Positions 4,984-26,208 of a stretch of DNA of 27,216 nt are shown one piece after another (positions within the stretch are counted from its first letter, which is position 1; every line of letters begins with the position of its first letter). The stretch covers positions 1 through 27,216 of IMG/VR virus record IMGVR_UViG_2711768034_000009; one strand, written 5' to 3'. The DNA comes from a virus. Taxonomy: Duplodnaviria; Heunggongvirae; Uroviricota; Caudoviricetes. The translations under genes and the position numbers were made by a program. The notes below the pieces were generated by a model. The model made no database searches. It had not been told where the DNA came from and saw only the letters and a list, made by a program, of their open reading frames with translations.

Positions 4984-6600
<1,617 letters not shown>

Positions 6601-17943: not shown

Positions 17944-18272
17944 GAACCTATGGCCGAAACTCTGAGGGGAAGTGGGTCCTGGTGGAAACCGACGAATATG
18001 GGTTTAATGACTCGGTGTATTTGACGACCCTGATCCAGAATCTGAAACTGGCGCCGCAGGAGTCGCCATTTTATGCGAACAACGGAATCCCGGCCGCCGG
18101 GTCGGTGATCCAGCAAATCCTGCCGACGTATTACGTAAACCGTATTCAGAAACAGTTCAGCCAGTATTTTTCCTCGCTGCAGATTGCGCTGATCAGCGAC
18201 GACCCGCCTGTTTATAACATCTCGGCAATCACAAATGCAGGTTCAAAAATAATTACACAGGTGGCCGTATGA
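17940..18272 (+). CDS. Putative baseplate wedge protein (gpW / gp25-like size and position)
   Basis: 110-aa ORF coupled to the genes on either side. Confidence 0.4.
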   Translation: MRTYGRNSEGKWVLVETDEYGFNDSVYLTTLIQNLKLAPQESPFYANNGIPAAGSVIQQILPTYYVNRIQKQFSQYFSSLQIALISDDPPVYNISAITNAGSKIITQVAV

Positions 18273-19687
18273 GCGATTTACCAGTCAGCTATACGTCAGC
18301 AGGCCCGGTTCCTCTGACGCCGGAAGAGCTACGAGCACAGCTCGTTTCTCAGGCAATTGCGCTATCTCCGGGACTCACAACTGATTTGCCTGGATCTCTG
18401 ATTGAGGACGTGGCCAGTACCGATGTCGGCGCGCTCATCGTTTGTGATCAAGCAAGGGTTGACCTGATTAACTCGGTGGGGCCACTAAAGGCTAACCTGG
18501 CCATGCTGGAGCTTCTCGCACAGCAGGCTGGTATTCCTGGGCAGAAAACGGCTGGCACAACAACAGTCCCGGTTCAGTTTTCCGGCCCCGCGGGATTTGT
18601 TATCCCACAGGGGTTTATTGTTTCTGATGGGACCTATACCTATTCAGTCAGTGATGCGACGATAATCTCGTCGTCAGGAGTGTCTGCCAGCGTATCATGC
18701 GAGGGAACAGAGACCGGGACCTGGGCGGTTCCGGTAAATACGGTTAACCAGATCATATCCAGTCTACCGTCTGACGTAACCATTACCTGCACCAACCCGA
18801 TCGCCGGCACTCCTGGTGCTGACCCGGAAACGAACTATCAGTTTCGTGATCGCGTATGGCAGGCGCAGATGGCCACCGTTCAGGGATATCCTGGATTTAT
18901 CCGGCAATATCTCACCAGCCTTGATAACGTGCAGGCGCGCCTGGTTTCTGTCATTCAGGACGGGGATAAGTGGATAGTCATGTGCGCCGGCGGTGATATT
19001 TACGATATTGCTGGCGCGCTCTATAAGTCTGCGGGGGATATCAGCCGGCTGAAAGGGTGTTCACTGAATGTAACTGGGATCACGAATGCAAATCCTGGCG
19101 TCGTCAGCACAGACCTGACTCATGGCTACACTGACGGCCAGGTTATCCGGATCACTGGCGTTACCGGGATGACGGGTATTAATGACGTTCCTCTGACCGT
19201 GACGGTACTGTCTCCTCACACTTTTTCCATCGGGATTGATACCACTTCATCCGGGACCTGGGGAGGCGGCGGCGAGGTGACACCGAACGTCAGAAACAAT
19301 ACCGTGACGGTGAATGACTGGCCTGATAACTACGTGATCCCGTTCGTGACGCCATTGCTGCAGCGGGTCACTGTGACGTATCAGTGGGGGACCGAAAGTG
19401 TTAACTACCTGACTGATGCGACGGTCGCCTCTCTGGTCTCGGCTCCTACGATTCAGTATGTGAACGGCATATTCGCCGGGAAACCGCTGAACGTTAACAA
19501 CCTGAAAGACGCATTCTTACAGGCGATTAACTCGACAATCGACATGGGGCTGATCAGCACTTTAAACGTCGTGGTCACCATCAATGGTGTGATAACGCCA
19601 CCGGATGCCGGGACGAATATCATCAGCGGCGATAAGTTCAGTTATTTTTATATCGCGTCGGATGGCGTGATCGTAACAGGGGCGTAG
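18269..19687 (+). CDS. Putative baseplate J-like protein
   Basis: 472-aa ORF in the baseplate J position. It contains the third copy of the shared roughly 60-aa module (HGYTDGQVIRITGV...). Confidence 0.5.
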   Translation: MSDLPVSYTSAGPVPLTPEELRAQLVSQAIALSPGLTTDLPGSLIEDVASTDVGALIVCDQARVDLINSVGPLKANLAMLELLAQQAGIPGQKTAGTTTVPVQFSGPAGFVIPQGFIVSDGTYTYSVSDATIISSSGVSASVSCEGTETGTWAVPVNTVNQIISSLPSDVTITCTNPIAGTPGADPETNYQFRDRVWQAQMATVQGYPGFIRQYLTSLDNVQARLVSVIQDGDKWIVMCAGGDIYDIAGALYKSAGDISRLKGCSLNVTGITNANPGVVSTDLTHGYTDGQVIRITGVTGMTGINDVPLTVTVLSPHTFSIGIDTTSSGTWGGGGEVTPNVRNNTVTVNDWPDNYVIPFVTPLLQRVTVTYQWGTESVNYLTDATVASLVSAPTIQYVNGIFAGKPLNVNNLKDAFLQAINSTIDMGLISTLNVVVTINGVITPPDAGTNIISGDKFSYFYIASDGVIVTGA

Positions 19688-19688
19688 C

Positions 19689-20393
19689 ATGCTGGACGAT
19701 ATCATCCGGTCGTATATGTATACGCAATACAACGACGATGAAAATCTGCGGGCGTTTTTTACTGCGTATAACTCGATGGCGCAGGGCATTTATGACTGGA
19801 TGGTTAATGCCAACCTGCCGATTTTCATCGGTGACTACAACACCGGAGATCAGCTCCGGTGGATTGCCCATGGCATCTATGGCGTTTTGCCGCCGGTGAT
19901 TTCCAGCAGCGATCAGCAGGAGATAGGCCCATATAACACCTTCGAATTTAACCAGCTGGCATTCAATGAGTACCGGGTGATTGACCAGTCAAACCAGGTT
20001 GTTGTCTCTGATGACCTTTTTAAGCGGATCATGACCTGGAATTTTTACAAAGGTGACGGCTTCTATTTCTCTATCCCATGGATAAAGCGGCGTATTCTGC
20101 GGTTCCTTTTGGGAGTGAATGGCACCGACATTCTCAACGACCAGCGATGGAGTATCTCGATCCAGTTTGTGGATGGCGGTATCGTGATTTCCATCTATAA
20201 AGGGCGCCGCATGTTCACGCGGAGCGCTATCTACAATGCATCGGCCTATAACTCCAGGAAGTACAACCAGAAGGACACGGCCTTTGTGATCACTGAGGAT
20301 TTCGAGTTCGCCATTTTTTTCAAGCAGGCCATGGATAGCGGCCTGCTGCACATGCCGTTTTACCAGTCAGTCACGGTTGAGATATTTGATTAG
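19689..20393 (+). CDS. Putative baseplate wedge / tail fibre attachment protein (P2 gpI / Mu gp48-like position)
   Basis: 234-aa ORF that is the last gene of the tightly coupled baseplate operon. Confidence 0.4.
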   Translation: MLDDIIRSYMYTQYNDDENLRAFFTAYNSMAQGIYDWMVNANLPIFIGDYNTGDQLRWIAHGIYGVLPPVISSSDQQEIGPYNTFEFNQLAFNEYRVIDQSNQVVVSDDLFKRIMTWNFYKGDGFYFSIPWIKRRILRFLLGVNGTDILNDQRWSISIQFVDGGIVISIYKGRRMFTRSAIYNASAYNSRKYNQKDTAFVITEDFEFAIFFKQAMDSGLLHMPFYQSVTVEIFD

Positions 20394-20645
20394 GTTTTTA
20401 TCTCGATTATCTATTGTTATATACAGATGTGATTTAACGCTCTGACAAATTATATACAGCACAACTATTGATAAAAACAAAATGGATGACATTTTTATCA
20501 TATCTATTGGCGGCATTCCTTGCTGAAAAAGAAATCCAAATAAAATAATAAGCAAGGCGCACGAAAGGAGTATTAATAAAGTAGATAGAGTTCCTAAAAG
20601 TATTTTTAAAATAGCAATAGAAGCATTATTCATAATATTCACCAT
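20367..20645 (-). CDS. Hypothetical small membrane protein, antisense to the tail operon
   Basis: 92-codon ORF in a low-GC gap that is otherwise non-coding on the + strand. The product is very hydrophobic with two or three predicted transmembrane segments. An internal Met at 20633 follows a GGTGA ribosome-binding-like motif. It is not certain that this ORF is expressed. Confidence 0.35.
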   Translation of the reverse strand: MVNIMNNASIAILKILLGTLSTLLILLSCALLIILFGFLFQQGMPPIDMIKMSSILFLSIVVLYIICQSVKSHLYITIDNRDKNLIKYLNRD

Positions 20646-20652
20646 TTAAAAG

Positions 20653-20672
20653 GCCGCGCTTGCGGTTTTTTT
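20653..20672 (+). terminator. Weak candidate intrinsic terminator upstream of the tailspike gene
   Basis: Short GC stem CCGC/GCGG with a GCTT loop followed by T7 (20666-20672). Confidence 0.3.
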
Positions 20673-20695
20673 ATTGCCTAATCCCGGAGGATACA

Positions 20696-22956
20696 TGGCA
20701 CTAACCCTTTTGGCTACAAACAACGCAGAAAGCACGCTGGCTTCTGCTATCAGCGCAACCGACACGTCGCTGATCGTTAGCGCTGGAACTGGTGCCGAGT
20801 TCCCTGATGCTGTGGCAGGCGAGAGTTACTTTAAGCTCACTCTCACCGATGCCGCCACTGGCTCACAGGTTGAGATCGTGAACGTGACAGCTAAGGCTGG
20901 AGACATCTTCACGATTGAGCGTGCGCAGGAAGGAACGCTGGCGCGTGCGTGGGCGGCCAATGATATGGTAGCCAACATGATGACGGCGGGTACCCTGAAC
21001 ATTATTGCTCAATATACCCAACAAGCAGCAGCATCAGCTGCACAGGCCGAAGAGTACAAGAATGATGCCTCTGAATACGCACTGAATAAGTTCACATTCT
21101 TTAAAACGCCGAGCGATCCGGATGGCACAATTGCAGGACTCGCTGCCACTACTAACGGACAGTCTTTTCGCGTAGCGGAAGGCCCGGAAGCGACAGCAGC
21201 ATTTAAAACCTACGAGAATCAGGATGGCGTGGCTGTGCTGCAGGCATCCCAACCCGGAACCTCAGCATTAACTGGGACCATCCGATACTACCCAAGTCTC
21301 TCGGCAGCGCAAAGCGATGCAAATGCAGGAAATATTTTAGCAAATGCAAAGTGCTGGGTAGATAACGAAGATGACGAAATGCTTGCCGACGAATACATCA
21401 ATTTATCTGGCGCATTGGTTGCAACTGGCAGACAGTCGGTATCAAAAAAATATATTTATGACATTATTCATAAAAACGATAGCCAGTATGTCATGGTTGT
21501 TATTGATAAAGACAATAACGTAAGGTTTGAAATTGATGTAAGCGGCTATTTTGAAACAGAAAATGTTTCTTTGAAAAATGGAAGCATTAAAAGCGGTGAT
21601 ATATCATTACGGATTGATGAAAACACAGATGGTTTTTTGGTGGTAGATTCTGATGGTAACGTTTTATTTGACTCTACCAACATAACTTCAAGTGGTGGGG
21701 GTACTGACCAGGGAGAGGTTACCGTAAACCTTCCTCCTCAAACATCTGCGTATAATGTTCTTTCAAAACTAAGATCTGCTCAGGATGATGTCTGCATTAT
21801 CATTAATAGCGACTCCACTGGAATAGATCACGATACCGACCCATCAACTGGGGTTTTGTTTTACAAGTGGACCAGAAAGCTTGCTAACTTTTTAGCTGCT
21901 AATTATCCAGCGTATACTGTTAATTATTATACATGGTCTGGGACAGGCTATTCTTCTGCCACTCAAATTCAGGTAGGGACATCTGGTAAAACCCTATACT
22001 TCTATAATGCAGCTGTTGCAGGTACTCAGCCATTATATCTTATGGGTAATTATTTTCAGGCTGCATATGTGCCAAGGCAAGCTGATCTGATCATAATGAA
22101 TCACGGGCATAATACTGACAGTAACGCACTTGTTTCCACTCATATGGGAATGGATTTGGCTGTAATGTATGCAATGCTTGAATGGCATCCAGCTGCAGGT
22201 GGGATGATCGTTTCGCAGAACCCACTTCGCGATAGCGAAAATGGCACAACAAGAAGTGACGGAGCGAGGCAGGCGGCAACAGCTGCCGGATTTAGTCTTA
22301 TTGATGCCTTTCAGCTTTTTCAGAATGCGGGTAAGCCAAGTGGCTGGTATATGGATAACATTCATCCTAATGCCGTTGGAGATTCTCAGATTTTTGAAAT
22401 AGTAAAAGATCTATTCGTGTGGCCAGCAGCTCCAGCTTTTAAATTGCAGGGTTTTGTTAATTCTGGGAACCTGCTAAAGAATGGCGATTTTTCTACATGG
22501 ACTGACACAAGCCAGCCTCCTGACAACTGGTCAGTAACCGGTTGTACAGCCTCAAAAGACACTACTAATTTTGAGAGTGGATCATGGGGTTTGCTTCTTA
22601 CCCAGACAGATACGATTGAGGCTTATGCAAGTCAAACGCTATCGGCAGATCTTGTTAAACGTCTGAGAGGGAAAACAGTAGCTCTTTCATGTCGTGTTTT
22701 TATCCCGACATCATCTACCAGGGCTAACTGCGGGGGGGTTCAAATACCAGAAGTATCAAATACTCGTACTTATGGAAGTTCTTCCGGTGGTCGCGGTGGG
22801 TTTGTTTGGAAAACAACCCTTGTAACTATTCCAGCTACAGCGACAGCAATTACAGTTCGAGCCGTTCTTGATACTGCCGGGGGTGTGGCAGGAAACTGGT
22901 GTACTTTTGACCGGTTAGTTTTAACATCTGGCTTTATCCCGCAAGACTCCTATTAA
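20696..22956 (+). CDS. Tailspike / tail fibre protein with SGNH (GDSL-like) esterase domain and C-terminal carbohydrate-binding-like domain
   Basis: The ATG at 20696 follows GGAGG (20686-20690); the ORF track's TTG at 20674 is rejected. The N-terminal roughly 105 aa are paralogous to the N-terminus of the 23776 gene. The central region has SGNH hydrolase blocks: IIINSDSTG (block I Ser), NHGHNTD (block III) and DNIHPN (block V Asp-x-x-His). The gene is low-GC. Confidence 0.65.
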
Positions 22957-22970
22957 GGTAAGGAATAAAT

Positions 22971-23729
22971 ATGGGCGTAGTAATTGAATCTCCGGCATCT
23001 AATGGCTGGAAAACAGCAAGCAGAATAGAAGTTCCATTTGATGCGGCATGGGAGGGATTCTTTTCTTTTGGCGTCGATGCAAAGACATCTATAAGAAATC
23101 TTATTGCAGGGAAAACCGCACTTTCAGCTGTTGGAGCTCTTGTCTACGGAGATAACTACGTTGATCTCACGGGTGCGCAAACTGCTTATTTCCTGACTGA
23201 TATTATAAACAGCTCTGATATGACAGTAATGGCTACCGCAATGCCACTGGAAGAAAAAGGGATCGCGATAGCATCGAACTATCAATCTACAAGGGCTGAC
23301 GCCACTGGATTATGCATTGGCACCAGTCTTGTATTCGATGTTGGATCAAACCCTTCAGATGGTAATGTAATAACGCGATTCAACCATGCGACGCTTGTAA
23401 GTGGGGTGTCAACCGGAGCCTCTGCAGAAACGTCGGTTGCCAGCCCCATAAATGAATGGTATCTGGTCGCCGGTCGTTGTCAGAACTCGAACAGGGTTAG
23501 AAATGTTTATAACCTTACAGCAGGAACGTCTGGTACTAATACTCCTCAATTAAACCCTGTTGATATTGGCGGCCCGATGCGGATTGGTTCTGCATACAAC
23601 AGCCAATTTCCAGGGAAGGTAAGGTTGTGTGAACTTGCTATTTTTAGTGAATCACTATCTGATGCTAACTTTGCGGCTTTAACTCAATTTATGCGGCAAA
23701 GGGCTTTAACCAAGGGTATTACTGTTTAA
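22971..23729 (+). CDS. Hypothetical receptor-binding accessory protein (LamG / concanavalin-like jelly-roll suspected)
   Basis: 252-aa ORF with an AAGGA ribosome-binding site. The C-terminal pattern VDIGGPMRIGS...FPGKVRLCELAIFSESLSDANFAAL resembles LamG-type lectin domains. This is a tentative call. Confidence 0.4.
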   Translation: MGVVIESPASNGWKTASRIEVPFDAAWEGFFSFGVDAKTSIRNLIAGKTALSAVGALVYGDNYVDLTGAQTAYFLTDIINSSDMTVMATAMPLEEKGIAIASNYQSTRADATGLCIGTSLVFDVGSNPSDGNVITRFNHATLVSGVSTGASAETSVASPINEWYLVAGRCQNSNRVRNVYNLTAGTSGTNTPQLNPVDIGGPMRIGSAYNSQFPGKVRLCELAIFSESLSDANFAALTQFMRQRALTKGITV

Positions 23730-23775
23730 CATATTTATGAATATATAATATCAACATCACATAATCGGTATTAAT

Positions 23776-24807
23776 ATGACTCTAAAGCTATTAGCCAATA
23801 ATAACGCAAAGAGTGTGCTCGCTGCGGGTATTAGCGCGTCCGCTACCGTTATTACCGTGGGTACTGGAGCGGGGTCTTTATTCCCTTCCCCTGTATCTGG
23901 ACAGAGCTATTTCAAATTAACGATAACCGATGCGGCGACGAAAACAATTTCTGAAATTATGCACGTTACGTCTGTATCCGGTGACGTGATGACAGTAATT
24001 CGTGGTCAGGAAGGAACTACGGCACGCGTATGGTCAACGAATGATATTGTCGCGAATTTAATGACCGCCGGGTCATTATTATCTTTCCTGCAGATCAGCA
24101 ATAACCTGTCAGAAATTAAAGATGCCGGTGAGGATGCGATAAATGAAGCCCGTTATAACCTCGGAATATCTGATTCCTCTGGTTTTGTCGGGCGTTCACT
24201 TGGCGCTCCAAAAGCGTTCTATGCAAACGGCACCTATACGCGATCTCCTCTGGCCCGTTATGCAAAAGTAACGTTGGTCGGAGGTGGCGGCGGCGGTGGC
24301 GGGTGCCAGGCATCTAATAACACCGAAACCTTCTCCGGTGCTGGCGGCGGCGCGGGCGCGACCATTATCGTATGGGTTGACCTGTCTGCTGCCAGTTCTT
24401 ATGCGATTACTGTCGGCAAGGGTGGTAAGGGCGGAGTTGGCGCAGTAAGTGGTGCGGATGGTGGGGCCACCTCGTTTGCCAGCCTGTTCTCAGCTCCTGG
24501 CGGGAAAGGAGGAGTGAAGTCAGGCTTGACCAATACCGCCGGCGGCGCCGGAGGTACGGCGGCGACCGGAGATATCAGGATCAACGGTGGTACCGGCTCA
24601 GATGGACAGACAGGCTCAAGCCTTCTGACGGGCAACGGCGGGGCGTCGTATTTTGGCGGCGGTGGCCGGGCGGGTTCTCAGGCCGGTATTGCTGGCGCAG
24701 CTCCCGGATCCGGTGGTGGTGGCGCGTATGACCTTGGGTTTACCGGTACGGCATTTACCGGTGGTGATGGTGCTACTGGCATGGCGATCGTGGAAGAATT
24801 CGCGTAA
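23776..24807 (+). CDS. Tail fibre protein with glycine-rich C-terminal domain
   Basis: 343-aa ORF whose N-terminal roughly 105 aa are paralogous to the tailspike N-terminus. The C-terminal half is extremely Gly-rich (GGGGGGGG and GGxGG repeats). Confidence 0.55.
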   Translation: MTLKLLANNNAKSVLAAGISASATVITVGTGAGSLFPSPVSGQSYFKLTITDAATKTISEIMHVTSVSGDVMTVIRGQEGTTARVWSTNDIVANLMTAGSLLSFLQISNNLSEIKDAGEDAINEARYNLGISDSSGFVGRSLGAPKAFYANGTYTRSPLARYAKVTLVGGGGGGGGCQASNNTETFSGAGGGAGATIIVWVDLSAASSYAITVGKGGKGGVGAVSGADGGATSFASLFSAPGGKGGVKSGLTNTAGGAGGTAATGDIRINGGTGSDGQTGSSLLTGNGGASYFGGGGRAGSQAGIAGAAPGSGGGGAYDLGFTGTAFTGGDGATGMAIVEEFA

Positions 24808-24811
24808 TGGC

Positions 24812-25972
24812 TTACACTCCTGCACGACCATCGATGTAATCAGCCCACCACTGCATCATTTCTCTGCGCTTATCGAGATACTGCGCATGGTTGTAAATAC
24901 CGCGCACAGATCCGCCGTTGGCATGTGCCAGTTGCACTTCAATAGCGTCAGCAGGCCATTCGTGCTCGTTCATAATTGTGCTGAATTCATGCCTGAATCC
25001 GTGACCGCTTTCCAGACCCTCATAGCCGATTTGTTTGATCACAAGCAATACCGCGTTCTCGCAGATTGGCTTCTTCTTATCGTTGCGACCGGCAAAAACA
25101 AACTCTGATACTGGTTTAGTGATTGAGCTTAGCGTAGTGAGAAGTTCAACAACCTGGTCTGACATAGGAACCACATGAATTTTGCGACCCTTCATCACAC
25201 TGGCGTCGATGGTGATAATCCTGTTTTCAAAATCGACGTTCTTCCATTGCATGGAACGAAGCTCTTTCGTTCTTAGGGCTGTATAGCGTAAAACCTTGGT
25301 CGCAATGAGCGATACGATGCTTCCTGAAAATGTTGCCAGTGCTTTGTTAAATGCCGGGATCTGGTCTGCAGGAAGAAACGGGAAGTTTTTCTTGCGGTAT
25401 CCCTTCATGGCGTCAGCAAGGTCAGGTGCCGGGTTATATTTAGCCCTACCAGTGACAATAGCGTAACGGAAAACCTCGCCACATCTTCTGCGGGCTTTGT
25501 TGGCTCGCTCCATTGCACCGCGATCTTCAAATCTGCGGATTACTTCCAGCAGTTGCATCGGCTCAATATCCAGAATCTCGAGACCGCCGATGATGGGTAA
25601 AATGTCGTCATCAAACATTTTGGCAAGTTCAGTCGCATACCCTACAGACCACACTTGCTTCTTGTGCTCGTACCATTCCTTGTAAATGGCACTAAAGGAG
25701 TTGTTGTTAGACGAAGCCTTTTTCGCTTTTACCGGATCTATGCCAACCGAGATGTCTTTCCTCGCAGTCCATGCTTTATCCCTTGCCTCCTGCAAAGTCA
25801 TAAGCGGATATTTTCCGACAGTCAGGATTTTCTCCTTACCGTCAATCTTGTAGCGAAGCTGCCATACCTTTTTCCCTGACACAGGGACATAAAGGTACAG
25901 GCCATTACCATCGAGAAGGCGGTATGGTTTTTCTTTCGGCTTTGCTGCTTCAATCTGCTTAACGGTGAGCAT
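24812..25972 (-). CDS. intS: Tyrosine integrase (IntS-like)
   Basis: The product from the first ATG (25972) begins MLTVKQIEAAKPKEKPYRLLDGNGLYLYVPVSGKKVWQLRYK, which I recognise as IntS-like, with a C-terminal catalytic region (...HGFRHEFST...). The ORF track's 26008 start is an upstream GTG. It is adjacent to a tRNA-Arg gene. Confidence 0.9.
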   Translation of the reverse strand: MLTVKQIEAAKPKEKPYRLLDGNGLYLYVPVSGKKVWQLRYKIDGKEKILTVGKYPLMTLQEARDKAWTARKDISVGIDPVKAKKASSNNNSFSAIYKEWYEHKKQVWSVGYATELAKMFDDDILPIIGGLEILDIEPMQLLEVIRRFEDRGAMERANKARRRCGEVFRYAIVTGRAKYNPAPDLADAMKGYRKKNFPFLPADQIPAFNKALATFSGSIVSLIATKVLRYTALRTKELRSMQWKNVDFENRIITIDASVMKGRKIHVVPMSDQVVELLTTLSSITKPVSEFVFAGRNDKKKPICENAVLLVIKQIGYEGLESGHGFRHEFSTIMNEHEWPADAIEVQLAHANGGSVRGIYNHAQYLDKRREMMQWWADYIDGRAGV

Positions 25973-26133
25973 GGGTAAAAATCCGGTGGGTAAAATTATT
26001 TTATCCACTTTTTACCCGTCATGGAGTGCGGCTGTCAACGATCTGACGCGAACCATTACGAACTGTGAATCTATGGAAGGCTTGCTATTCAGGGGATTTT
26101 GCGGACTGGTACGGATGGGAGCGAACTGATAAA

Positions 26134-26208
26134 TGGTGTCCCCTGCAGGAATCGAACCTGCAATTAGCCCTTAGGAGGGGCTCGTTATATCCATTTAACT
26201 AAGAGGAC
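26134..26208 (-). tRNA. argW: tRNA-Arg (anticodon CCU)
   Basis: The reverse complement of 26134-26208 is GTCCTCTTAGTTAAATGGATATAACGAGCCCCTCCTAAGGGCTAATTGCAGGTTCGATTCCTGCAGGGGACACCA. It folds by hand into a cloverleaf with a 7-bp acceptor stem, D-stem GTTA/TAAC, anticodon stem AGCCC/GGGCT with loop CTCCTAA (anticodon CCT), T-arm GCAGG/CCTGC and a CCA end. Confidence 0.85.

What the first reader, a model, noticed from the sequence alone, without database searches (positions are those of the whole stretch)
20696..24807. Duplicated N-terminal anchor domain on two receptor-binding proteins with different C-terminal domains
The first roughly 105 residues of the 20696 and 23776 products are clearly paralogous (MALTLLATNNAESTLASAISATDTSLIVSAGTGAEFP...SYFKLTLTDAAT versus MTLKLLANNNAKSVLAAGISASATVITVGTGAGSLFP...SYFKLTITDAAT), while their C-termini are unrelated (SGNH esterase versus Gly-rich). 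This suggests two alternative or co-mounted receptor-binding proteins sharing one docking site. The protein encoded between them has no anchor domain.
Basis: seen in the sequence. Interest (0 to 1): 0.5.

Follow-up and report, generated by a model that had tools for sequence, protein, structure and literature searches.

The report
Two prophage tail fibres sharing one anchor
An E. coli prophage encodes two tail fibres with a related attachment domain of about 100 residues but different host-binding ends (a sugar-deacetylating enzyme and a glycine-rich adhesin), which is a real but fairly ordinary example of how phages build modular, two-receptor host recognition.

Summary
The products of 20695-22956 (753 aa) and 23776-24807 (343 aa) share a paralogous N-terminal domain: 57% identity over 101 aa, BLASTP E=6e-34. 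Their remaining sequence is unrelated.

The window is an E. coli prophage at tRNA-Arg (argW). It belongs to the recently proposed Felixviridae, temperate myophages related to Klebsiella phages Chronis and RothC/D, which are reported to resemble the minimal myophage Pam3.

The shared domain behaves as a tail-attachment module.
- It matches the N-terminus of the solved Ralstonia phage GP4 tail fibre (PDB 8JOV).
- It sits at the extreme N-terminus in nearly all of the best-scoring hits, out of >10,000 protein-cluster representatives matched.
- Recombination breakpoints fall just behind it.

RBP1 consists of anchor, neck, SGNH esterase and a CBM-like domain. RBP2 consists of anchor and a Pam3-type polyglycine adhesin.

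In close relatives, all 22 loci complete for both genes carry both fibres: 17 RBP1 end-types against 5 RBP2 end-types. More distant relatives have a single fibre.

No inversion switch exists, so co-mounting is the likeliest reading. Whether the two anchors share one docking site or divide two sites between them is unresolved.

The middle gene travels with the esterase module as a two-gene cassette.

Verdict: a new member of a known kind, of moderate to low interest.

The parts
18269..19687 (+). Baseplate J-like wedge subunit (472 aa) with an E1_FCCH-like inserted domain (aa 275-338). Context: part of the presumed fibre-docking platform.
   Evidence: Pfam Baseplate_J 6e-12 and E1_FCCH 4e-14; phrog_6 baseplate wedge subunit. 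Same gene, 472 aa, in the related loci inspected.
19689..20393 (+). 234-aa conserved protein in the second wedge position (phrog_8212). It lies upstream of the fibre module, separated from RBP1 only by a small minus-strand ORF, and is the presumed docking partner by inference from synteny.
   Evidence: phrog_8212 8e-90. 191 relatives in IMG/VR. No Pfam or PDB match even with a profile. The PdC23 homologue is annotated DUF2612 by its depositors.
20695..21009 (+). RBP1 anchor domain (aa 1-105), 'long-fibre' type.
   Evidence: 57% identical to the RBP2 anchor. 94-98% identical to the Chronis, RothC and ETEC4091 orthologues. Matches 8JOV chain residues 7-116, E=1.3e-10.
21010..21444 (+). RBP1 neck: a helical segment followed by a beta-rich segment (aa ~106-250), partly conserved in the family. 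Recombination breakpoints cluster at aa ~120, ~162, ~217 and ~248.
   Evidence: phmmer over related loci. Breakpoint scan. Predicted helices 82-125.
21757..22419 (+). RBP1 SGNH/GDSL esterase domain (aa ~355-575). Putative catalytic residues S374, G443, N473, D554, H557.
   Evidence: Pfam Lipase_GDSL_2 6.9e-5, below the cut-off. Motif blocks conserved in 25-27 of 31 aligned sequences. Homologues carry PF13472 or are named SGNH/GDSL hydrolase.
22462..22953 (+). RBP1 C-terminal beta-sandwich, similar to carbohydrate-binding modules (aa ~590-753).
   Evidence: Foldseek hits to a hyaluronan-binding module (4d0q, E=2e-6) and to CBM16, CBM22 and CBM4, TM 0.6-0.68 on the target. Model pLDDT there is 67-90 in most 10-residue blocks, lower at 691-700 and the last few residues.
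22971..23729 (+). 252-aa ConA-like (Laminin_G_3-like) protein without an anchor. It is an obligate partner of the RBP1 esterase/CBM module: an accessory subunit or an assembly chaperone.
   Evidence: Pfam Laminin_G_3 9e-5, below the cut-off; phrog_4390 1e-43. In the surveyed loci it occurs only next to the same RBP1 end-type. The same two-gene cassette sits in P2-like and sipho-like phages behind other N-termini.
23776..24090 (+). RBP2 anchor domain (aa 1-105), 'short-fibre' type.
   Evidence: Matches 8JOV, E=6.4e-7, and 8.8e-13 with a profile. 10,009 cluster representatives at E<=1e-3, with the domain at residue 1 in nearly all of the listed hits.
24193..24804 (+). RBP2 TNF-like plus polyglycine-rich receptor-binding domain (aa ~140-343).
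   Evidence: PF21722, 57.3 bits. Profile hit to Pam3 fibre 7yfw/7ypx, E~2e-7. AF2 pLDDT >=85 (mostly >90) over aa 141-343; Foldseek hits to 7ypx (5e-8) and Bxb1 gp33 (1e-7).
24812..26008 (-). IntS-type tyrosine integrase, marking the end of the prophage. The fibre module is the last late-gene block.
   Evidence: NCBIfam integrase domain 9e-71. ~96-97% DNA identity to the Sf6, CUS-3, HK633 and other coliphage integrases.
26134..26208 (-). tRNA-Arg(CCT) (argW), the attachment site. yfdC follows, so the host is E. coli.
   Evidence: ARAGORN. 100% identity to E. coli yfdC/tRNA-Arg.

Best explanation
The region is the host-recognition module of an E. coli prophage of the Chronis/RothD (proposed Felixviridae) type, a small temperate myophage. 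It encodes two fibres that carry paralogous ~100-residue N-terminal baseplate-attachment domains followed by exchangeable distal modules.

- RBP1 (753 aa) consists of anchor, neck, SGNH esterase and a CBM-like domain. It is the hypervariable fibre and most likely binds and deacetylates a surface polysaccharide (O-antigen or capsule).
- RBP2 (343 aa) consists of anchor, a short helical neck and a polyglycine-rich adhesin of the Pam3 gp24 / S16 gp38 kind. It is the conservative fibre and most likely binds a more invariant receptor.

Both genes are expressed from the same strand with no switch, so both fibres are most likely mounted together on each virion. By analogy with Pam3, each wedge may hold two non-equivalent fibre sites (12 fibres in all). 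The two diverged anchors may each take one site, giving six of each fibre.

The 252-aa protein encoded between them belongs functionally to RBP1's distal module, as an accessory lectin or a chaperone, and not to the baseplate.

Shown: the paralogy, the domain identities, the modular exchange, the constant co-occurrence, and the absence of a switch. Inferred: co-mounting, the docking partner, the division of sites, and the receptor classes.
For: - Paralogy: E=6e-34.
- The anchor is homologous to the N-terminus of GP4 fibre gp76, which is PDB 8JOV with 18 chains.
- The anchor family is huge and sits at the N-terminus in nearly all listed hits.
- The same anchors are fused to many other ends. Behind the RBP2 anchor: PF21882, PF07484 and PF03335. 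Behind the RBP1 anchor: PF03629, M14 peptidase, CotH and others. Conversely, the esterase and Gly-rich ends occur behind other anchors: PF18668, PF08400, PF03906, PF12571.
- Breakpoints cluster just after the anchor.
- Family survey through the wedge protein. All 22 close relatives complete for both genes carry one long fibre and one short fibre. RBP1 has 17 end-types in 30 complete genes; RBP2 has 5 in 22. The pairings vary independently.
- Each anchor type is 92-98% conserved across Chronis, RothC and ETEC4091, against 57% between types.
- More distant relatives (wedge ~66% identical) have a single anchor-bearing fibre, Gly-rich in several of them, whose anchor is 66-70% identical to both paralogues.
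- No long inverted repeats and no invertase.
- Myophage context: sheath, tape measure, hub, baseplate J.
- Literature: Felixviridae core proteins resemble those of Pam3 (PMC12629751). Pam3 wedges carry two fibre sites (PMC9942802). SGNH fibres of Klebsiella prophages are active esterases (PMC13123978).
- The middle gene co-travels with the esterase module.
Against: - There are no virion data for this phage family, so co-mounting is an inference.
- The anchor could not be modelled (pLDDT<50 in both AF2 runs), so no interface could be examined.
- The 234-aa presumed docking protein has no detectable match to any solved structure or Pfam family. Its equivalence to Pam3 gp23 rests on gene order and on a published statement about the family.
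- The Pam3 fibre uses a different (helical, disulfide-linked) anchor, so the two-site analogy may not transfer.
- In the podophage JC1, with three anchor-bearing fibre genes, mass spectrometry detected only one.
- RBP2 has a weak ribosome-binding site.
Confidence: 0.6

Rival explanations
1. Both anchors bind the same class of baseplate site and compete for it. Virions would then carry a stochastic mixture of the two fibres, in a ratio set by expression.
For: The two anchors are homologous. Each is 66-70% identical to the single anchor of one-fibre relatives, which presumably fills every site alone, as Pam3 gp24 does (PMC9942802). Nothing in the sequence marks a second site.
Against: The two anchor types are kept distinct (57% identity) while each is 92-98% conserved among relatives. 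That pattern is expected for specialised interfaces. All 22 complete close relatives keep both genes.
Confidence: 0.25
2. A branched arrangement. Only one fibre docks on the baseplate and the other (or the 252-aa protein) hangs on it, as in G7C gp66/gp63.1, KP32-type dual depolymerases or the CBA120 tailspike complex.
For: RBP1 has a sizeable beta-rich region (aa ~150-340) of unassigned function. The middle protein has no anchor, yet always accompanies the esterase module, so it may ride on RBP1.
Against: In the known branched systems the riding protein lacks the tail anchor. Here both fibres carry the same kind of anchor at residue 1. No T4 gp10-like or XD-type branching domain was detected by Pfam. 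RBP1 and RBP2 end-types assort independently.
Confidence: 0.07
3. Only one of the two fibres is incorporated. The other is a spare cassette for recombination, or is used only in some hosts or conditions.
For: In JC1, only one of three paralogous fibre genes was seen by virion mass spectrometry. RBP2 has a weak ribosome-binding site and a 46-nt AT-rich spacer.
Against: Both genes are intact and full-length in every complete close relative. The anchors are too diverged at the DNA level to recombine with each other; no repeat was found between them. There is no invertase or switch.
Confidence: 0.08

Closest known systems
Klebsiella phages vB_Kpn_Chronis and RothC/RothD (proposed family Felixviridae, genus Nakavirus) and E. 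coli prophages such as those of ETEC4091 and N921
   Same: The gene order is the same: baseplate J, 234-aa protein, long variable fibre, short fibre, integrase. Matched segments of the tail module are 89-95% identical at the DNA level. Both anchor types are present, at 92-98% identity to the window's. RothD gp33 is described as a short tail fibre with a polyglycine-rich domain (PMC12629751).
   Different: The window's RBP1 distal module and the middle gene differ from theirs. This cassette is absent from 5,426 complete E. coli genomes. The main text of the family paper does not mention the shared N-terminal domain: 'N-terminal' occurs 0 times.
Bcep22-like and GP4-like podophages (Lessievirus, Gervaisevirus) with 2-4 paralogous tail fibre genes; GP4 fibre gp76 solved in PDB 8JOV
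   Same: They use the same N-terminal domain family (35-45% identity). It is duplicated two or three times in adjacent fibre genes with different distal parts.
   Different: These are podophages. Their fibres sit near a 93-aa fibre-tail adaptor ring (8jou_D) that has no counterpart or similarity here. The duplications appear to be independent of the one here.
Cyanomyophage Pam3 fibre gp24 and its wedge (PDB 7YFW/7YPX; PMC9942802)
   Same: The distal TNF-like plus glycine-rich domain is homologous to RBP2. Pam3 has a minimal baseplate in which the wedge offers two fibre sites. The Felixviridae core is reported to resemble it (PMC12629751).
   Different: Pam3 has one fibre gene. Its anchor is a helical bundle disulfide-bonded to the wedge and is not the anchor domain described here.
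Esterase tailspikes and fibres: G7C gp63.1, DEV gp53, and SGNH fibres of Klebsiella prophages
   Same: They are SGNH-type esterases mounted on a fibre behind an N-terminal attachment domain and a coiled-coil. DEV gp53 has a comparable layout: an N-terminal beta-barrel (residues 1-91), a coiled-coil, then a carbohydrate esterase-like domain, followed by a further C-terminal fibre domain (PMC11445570). Klebsiella prophage SGNH fibres have been shown to be active esterases (PMC13123978).
   Different: G7C gp63.1 rides on gp66 rather than on the tail. No sequence link between the window's anchor and DEV gp53 or G7C was found in the PDB searches.

Membership tests
GP4 gp76-type N-terminal fibre anchor domain (no Pfam model found) | Significant sequence similarity to the N-terminal ~105 residues of the solved fibre | tested here: met
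   8jov_1: E=1.3e-10 for RBP1, 6.4e-7 for RBP2, and 8.8e-13 with a profile. 8jov_1 is GP4 gp76.
GP4 gp76-type N-terminal fibre anchor domain (no Pfam model found) | Domain at the extreme N-terminus, followed by interchangeable distal modules | tested here: met
   Nearly all of the 150 best representatives start the match at residue 1-5. Alternative C-terminal domains follow the same anchor. Breakpoints fall at aa ~100-135 and ~120-250.
GP4 gp76-type N-terminal fibre anchor domain (no Pfam model found) | Physically attaches the fibre to the tail or baseplate | not testable with these tools
   The AF2 monomer models of the domain are unreliable (pLDDT<50). Complexes could not be modelled.
SGNH/GDSL hydrolase | Four conserved blocks with catalytic Ser, Gly, Asn and Asp-x-x-His | tested here: met
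   S374 in NSDSTG, G443, N473 in NHGHN, D554/H557 in DNIHP. Each is conserved in 25-27 of 31 aligned sequences.
SGNH/GDSL hydrolase | Pfam PF13472 score above the gathering threshold | tested here: not met
   23.9 bits against a cut-off of 32.9 for the window protein. Homologues at 55-61% identity do carry PF13472, and the 79%-identical protein is named SGNH/GDSL hydrolase by its source.
SGNH/GDSL hydrolase | Esterase activity | not testable with these tools
   Shown only for other prophage SGNH fibres (PMC13123978).
Gly_rich_2 / Pam3 gp24-type polyglycine fibre tip | PF21722 above threshold, and a fold match to the solved fibre | tested here: met
   57.3 bits against 24.3. Foldseek hit to 7ypx_A, E=4.7e-8. 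Profile hit to 7yfw/7ypx, E~2e-7.
Gly_rich_2 / Pam3 gp24-type polyglycine fibre tip | Pam3-type helical N-terminal anchor disulfide-linked to the wedge | tested here: not met
   The match to the Pam3 fibre covers only RBP2 aa 134-341. The N-terminus belongs to the other, GP4 gp76-type domain.
Branched RBP complexes (G7C gp66/gp63.1, KP32-type, CBA120) | One RBP has the tail anchor plus a branching domain; the second lacks the anchor and binds the first | tested here: not met
   Both fibres carry the anchor at residue 1. Pfam detected no branching domain. The anchor-less 252-aa protein could still ride on RBP1; this was not tested.
Invertible or alternative tail-fibre switches (Mu Gin, P1 Cin type) | An invertase gene and inverted repeats flanking alternative fibre ends | tested here: not met
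   The longest inverted pair is 24 nt at 79% complementarity and does not flank the fibre ends. The only recombinase is the prophage integrase.
Felixviridae-type temperate myophage | Conserved structural core ending at the 234-aa protein, followed by a variable fibre module and an integrase | tested here: met
   89-95% DNA identity to Chronis and RothC/D over matched segments of the tail genes. Same gene order. Sheath, portal and terminase are present.

The most novel reading that the evidence does not exclude
The two paralogous anchors may have sub-functionalised to the two non-equivalent fibre sites of a Pam3-like minimal baseplate, giving an obligate 6+6 hetero-fibre particle. The duplication of an anchor-bearing fibre gene followed by a swap of the distal module may also have happened repeatedly and independently, in the close relatives, in the more distant two-fibre group, in PdC23, in L084 and in Bcep22/GP4-like podophages. 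That would make it a general evolutionary route from one-receptor to two-receptor phages.
Probability: 0.3. Interest if true: 0.5.

Novelty: new member of a known kind. Interest (0 to 1): 0.3.

Why it matters
Modular fibres with a conserved attachment domain are the basis of phage host-range engineering. This case defines a compact, very widespread anchor domain of about 100 residues: more than 10,000 cluster representatives, no Pfam model detected, and one solved homologue. It also shows where distal modules can be exchanged in a gut-associated temperate phage family of E. coli and Klebsiella. The family contains natural one-fibre and two-fibre members, which makes it a convenient system for asking how a minimal baseplate accommodates a second receptor-binding protein. 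The biology is otherwise expected: dual RBPs, SGNH esterase fibres and polyglycine adhesins are all already described.

Tried and rejected
- AlphaFold2 on RBP2 (30-sequence alignment) and on RBP1 (31 sequences). The distal domains were usable. The anchor came out at pLDDT 26-50 in both runs, so no fold comparison of the anchor was possible.
- PDB sequence and profile searches, and Pfam, with the 234-aa wedge-position protein found nothing. Its equivalence to Pam3 gp23 could not be tested.
- PDB search with the baseplate J-like protein returned only E1 FCCH domains and a weak TRI-2 hit.
- The GP4 structure paper (PMID 37660940) is not held. How the 8JOV anchor contacts the tail could not be read. 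The second GP4 anchor-bearing fibre, gp75, is not in the PDB.
- Similarity between the anchor and the GP4 93-aa fibre-tail adaptor: none.
- Invertible-segment or shufflon idea: rejected, because there are no suitable inverted repeats and no invertase.
- Recent duplication or recombination between the two anchors: rejected, because no DNA repeat was found between them.
- Shared anchor in P2-like Klebsiella prophages that carry the same esterase cassette: absent.
- NCBIfam gave nothing for the three proteins.
- The promoter and terminator scans were at background level.


Full report
**Observation**

The + strand carries three consecutive ORFs at the right end of a prophage:
- 20695-22956 (753 aa, here called RBP1);
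- 22971-23729 (252 aa, here called 'mid');
- 23776-24807 (343 aa, here called RBP2).

The RBP1 start is ATG 20695, preceded by GGAGG. BLASTP of RBP1 against RBP2 gives one significant segment: residues 1-146 against 1-138, 47% identity, E=6e-34. Everything else is noise. Over the first 101 residues the identity is 57%. The paralogy is real and is restricted to the N-terminus. At the DNA level the two copies are too diverged to register as a repeat, so this is an old duplication and not a recent one.

**What the surrounding element is**

Downstream lie an IntS-type integrase (24812-26008, minus strand), tRNA-Arg(CCT) (26134-26208) and yfdC. The tRNA-yfdC flank is 100% identical to E. coli, so this is a prophage at argW in E. 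coli.

Upstream are a spanin, terminase, portal, head genes, a tail sheath, a tape measure with a transglycosylase domain, a baseplate hub, a baseplate J-like protein with an FCCH-like insertion, and a 234-aa conserved protein. The element is therefore a myophage.

The tail genes are 89-95% identical at the DNA level, over the matched segments, to Klebsiella phages vB_Kpn_Chronis and RothC/RothD. These have the same gene order, as do E. coli prophages in strains ETEC4091 and N921.

RothD is the type of the proposed family Felixviridae (PMC12629751). In that family:
- the members are temperate and gut-associated;
- a conserved structural core ends exactly before the first fibre gene;
- the core proteins were reported to resemble those of the minimal cyanomyophage Pam3.

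**The two distal ends**

RBP2 residues ~140-343 are a Gly_rich_2 domain (57.3 bits; cut-off 24.3). A family profile hits the Pam3 fibre (7yfw/7ypx, E~2e-7). The AF2 model is confident there (pLDDT >=85, mostly >90). Foldseek returns the Pam3 fibre (E=5e-8) and the mycobacteriophage Bxb1 'tail wing brush' gp33 (E=1e-7). This is the TNF-like plus polyglycine adhesin fold known from Pam3 gp24 and S16 gp38 (PMC9942802).

RBP1 has a helical neck after the anchor, then a beta-rich region of unassigned function, then an SGNH esterase and a C-terminal beta-sandwich.
- Its Pfam score is sub-threshold. All four SGNH blocks are nevertheless present and conserved among homologues (S374, G443, N473, D554/H557).
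- Homologues at 55-61% identity carry PF13472, and the 79%-identical protein is named SGNH/GDSL hydrolase by its source.
- The C-terminal ~165 residues match carbohydrate-binding modules.
- SGNH fibres are common in Klebsiella prophages, and two of them were shown to be active esterases (PMC13123978).

**Is the shared domain an anchor?**

Four lines of evidence say yes.

1. It is homologous to residues ~4-116 of the only related solved protein, PDB 8jov chain 1 (E=1.3e-10, 6.4e-7, and 8.8e-13 with a profile). I verified that this chain is the 439-aa tail fibre gp76 of Ralstonia podophage GP4, present as 18 chains.
2. A search of 1.84 billion cluster representatives finds 10,009 proteins at E<=1e-3 and 2,712 at E<=1e-10. 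In nearly all of the 150 listed the domain starts at residue 1-5, in proteins mostly of 170-880 aa.
3. The same anchors are joined to many alternative ends. Behind the RBP2-type anchor are PF21882, PF07484 and PF03335 instead of the Gly-rich domain. Behind the RBP1-type anchor plus neck are sialate O-acetylesterase, other SGNH domains, M14 peptidase, CotH, SwmB and many unannotated ends. Conversely, the esterase end occurs behind PF18668, PF08400 or PF03906 N-termini, and the Gly-rich end behind PF12571/PF03406 N-termini.
4. Among close relatives, the block of high identity to the window stops at aa ~117-121, ~162, ~217-221 or ~247-250 in RBP1, and at aa ~99-137 in RBP2.

Pfam has no model that hits the domain. 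AF2 could not model it as a monomer (pLDDT<50 in both runs).

**Family survey**

I used the conserved 234-aa protein as an unbiased handle and fetched 80 IMG/VR loci. I then scanned all ORFs for the anchor.

- Close relatives (234-aa protein >=94% identical): every locus that is complete for both genes (22 of 22) has one long fibre (640-1259 aa) with the RBP1-type anchor and one short fibre (279-368 aa) with the RBP2-type anchor. The loci lacking the second gene are all cut by a contig end.
- The 30 complete long fibres fall into 17 distal types. The 22 short fibres fall into 5, and the window's Gly-rich type accounts for 13 of those 22. The pairings assort independently. RBP1 is therefore the hypervariable fibre and RBP2 the conservative one.
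- A second group (234-aa protein ~66% identical) has only one anchor-bearing fibre (265-498 aa, Gly-rich in several loci) before the integrase, even where kilobases of downstream sequence are available.
- A third group (60-64% identical), Pantoea phage PdC23 and locus L084 again have two.

**Pairwise identities of the anchors**

- Short-fibre anchors and single-fibre anchors are all ~64-77% identical to one another.
- The window's two anchors are 57% identical to each other, but each is 66-70% identical to the single anchors.
- The long-fibre anchors of the different two-fibre lineages are no closer to each other (51-58%) than to anything else.
- In L084/L086 the two copies are 68% identical, as are Bcep22 gp65 and gp66.

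This pattern, together with an NJ tree, suggests one of two histories: repeated duplication of a single ancestral fibre gene, or one old duplication followed by fast evolution of the long-fibre copy. The analysis is not strong enough to decide between them. The same domain is duplicated two or three times in GP4-like and Bcep22-like podophages.

**Mechanism**

The two genes lie on one strand in one gene string. There are no convincing inverted repeats and no invertase, so there is no genetic either/or switch. Both fibres are kept intact in all complete close relatives. The most economical reading is that both are mounted on the same particle.

How they dock cannot be computed here. The published Pam3 structure shows six wedges, each with two non-equivalent fibre platforms. 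These hold 12 copies of one fibre, alternately pointing up and down (PMC9942802). One-fibre Felixviridae-type relatives plausibly work the same way.

In two-fibre members, each anchor type is 92-98% conserved among relatives but 57% identical to the other type. That fits a division of the two sites, six RBP1 plus six RBP2. Competition for identical sites is not excluded.

A functional division of labour is likely:
- an esterase/CBM fibre for a variable, acetylated surface polysaccharide, as for G7C gp63.1, DEV gp53 and the Klebsiella prophage esterases (PMC11445570, PMC13123978);
- a polyglycine adhesin for a more conserved receptor.

Caveats:
- The Pam3 anchor is not homologous to this one.
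- The 234-aa protein has no detectable solved relative.
- In podophage JC1, virion mass spectrometry found only one of three paralogous fibres (PMC9144972).

**The middle gene**

The 252-aa protein lacks the anchor. It has weak similarity to ConA-like lectins (Laminin_G_3, E=9e-5) and belongs to phrog_4390.

Among the surveyed loci it occurs only next to the same RBP1 distal type (window, L026, L032). A 28%-identical relative follows the Chronis-type RBP1. L032 combines it with a different RBP2.

Database homologues sit on the same contigs as homologues of the RBP1 distal part (matching contig lengths). Look-ups show the same 'SGNH fibre + ~252-aa protein' pair in two other contexts:
- in P2-like Klebsiella prophages, after the baseplate gene with the Tail_P2_I domain, the position that the P2 fibre gene and its assembly chaperone occupy (from my own knowledge of the P2 gene order);
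- in a sipho-like contig, behind a PF08400 N-terminus.

The middle gene is therefore part of a mobile two-gene distal cassette. It serves the esterase module, either as an accessory lectin subunit or as an assembly chaperone, and not the baseplate. This particular cassette has low GC (42-45%) and is absent from 5,426 complete E. coli genomes. Its nearest named relatives are from Klebsiella.

**Comparison and novelty**

Conserved N-terminal anchors with exchangeable distal domains, dual-RBP phages, SGNH esterase fibres and polyglycine adhesins are all established (for example PMC12692247, PMC13579863, PMC13123978, PMC9942802).

What is specific here:
- an anchor domain that no Pfam model hit but that is very widespread;
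- its paralogous use in both fibres of a recently recognised temperate myophage family, whose describing paper does not mention it in its main text;
- the existence of natural one-fibre and two-fibre relatives.

I rate it a new member of a known kind.

Noticed in passing
window 20367-20645 (- strand) and 20648-20675: A 92-aa hydrophobic, membrane-like ORF lies on the opposite strand between the wedge-position gene and RBP1. Homologues are found in 22 related loci at the same position. It may be a moron, for example a superinfection-exclusion gene. An A-run/short GC hairpin/T-run lies just upstream of the RBP1 ribosome-binding site.
   Followed up: partly
window 18269-19687, aa 275-338: The baseplate J-like protein carries an inserted domain that matches the ubiquitin-E1 FCCH domain (Pfam 4e-14; PDB E1 enzymes down to 6.5e-7). 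In the two most distant relatives inspected (L084, L085) the ORF at this position is shorter (391 and 404 aa). The insertion could be a fibre-docking or carbohydrate-binding module.
   Followed up: no
window 22971-23729; loci L087-L090: The esterase fibre end and the 252-aa ConA-like protein form a mobile two-gene cassette. It is also present in P2-like Klebsiella prophages, directly after the fibre gene and before a second fibre gene, and in a sipho-like contig behind a different N-terminal anchor.
   Followed up: yes
window 20695-23729: This distal cassette has low GC (42-45%, against 52-57% in the phage core) and is not found in any of 5,426 complete E. coli genomes. Only the first ~500 nt (anchor and neck) match, in 48 genomes. 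The closest named relatives are from Klebsiella.
   Followed up: partly
database proteins P0242, P0109, P0261, P0265, P0297, P0332, P0336, P0356: Some proteins show two or three separate matched stretches to the anchor domain, suggesting tandem copies within one chain. What that means for attachment is unknown.
   Followed up: no
window 20695-21009 and 23776-24090: AlphaFold2 gave pLDDT <50 for the anchor in both proteins, despite strong conservation and a solved homologue. Possible reasons are a domain that folds only in an oligomer or on its partner, or alignments that were too shallow (30-31 sequences).
   Followed up: partly
window 24812-26008 (- strand): The integrase is ~96-97% identical at the DNA level to those of Sf6, CUS-3, HK633 and other coliphages (several of them known to me as P22-like podophages). 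An integration module is thus shared between unrelated phage types at argW.
   Followed up: no
window 4987-6600: A 537-aa head-module protein combines a NUDIX/MutT-like N-terminal region with a head-maturation-protease-like region (phrog_6216, phrog_1198, phrog_530).
   Followed up: no
loci L007, L011, L023, L091 (upstream of RBP2): Many relatives have extra small ORFs directly upstream of the short fibre gene: a 116-aa ORF in L007, L011 and L023, a 79 + 105 aa pair in N921 (L091), and a 79-aa ORF followed by one annotated 'DNA polymerase V subunit UmuD' in RothC. The window lacks these ORFs.
   Followed up: no
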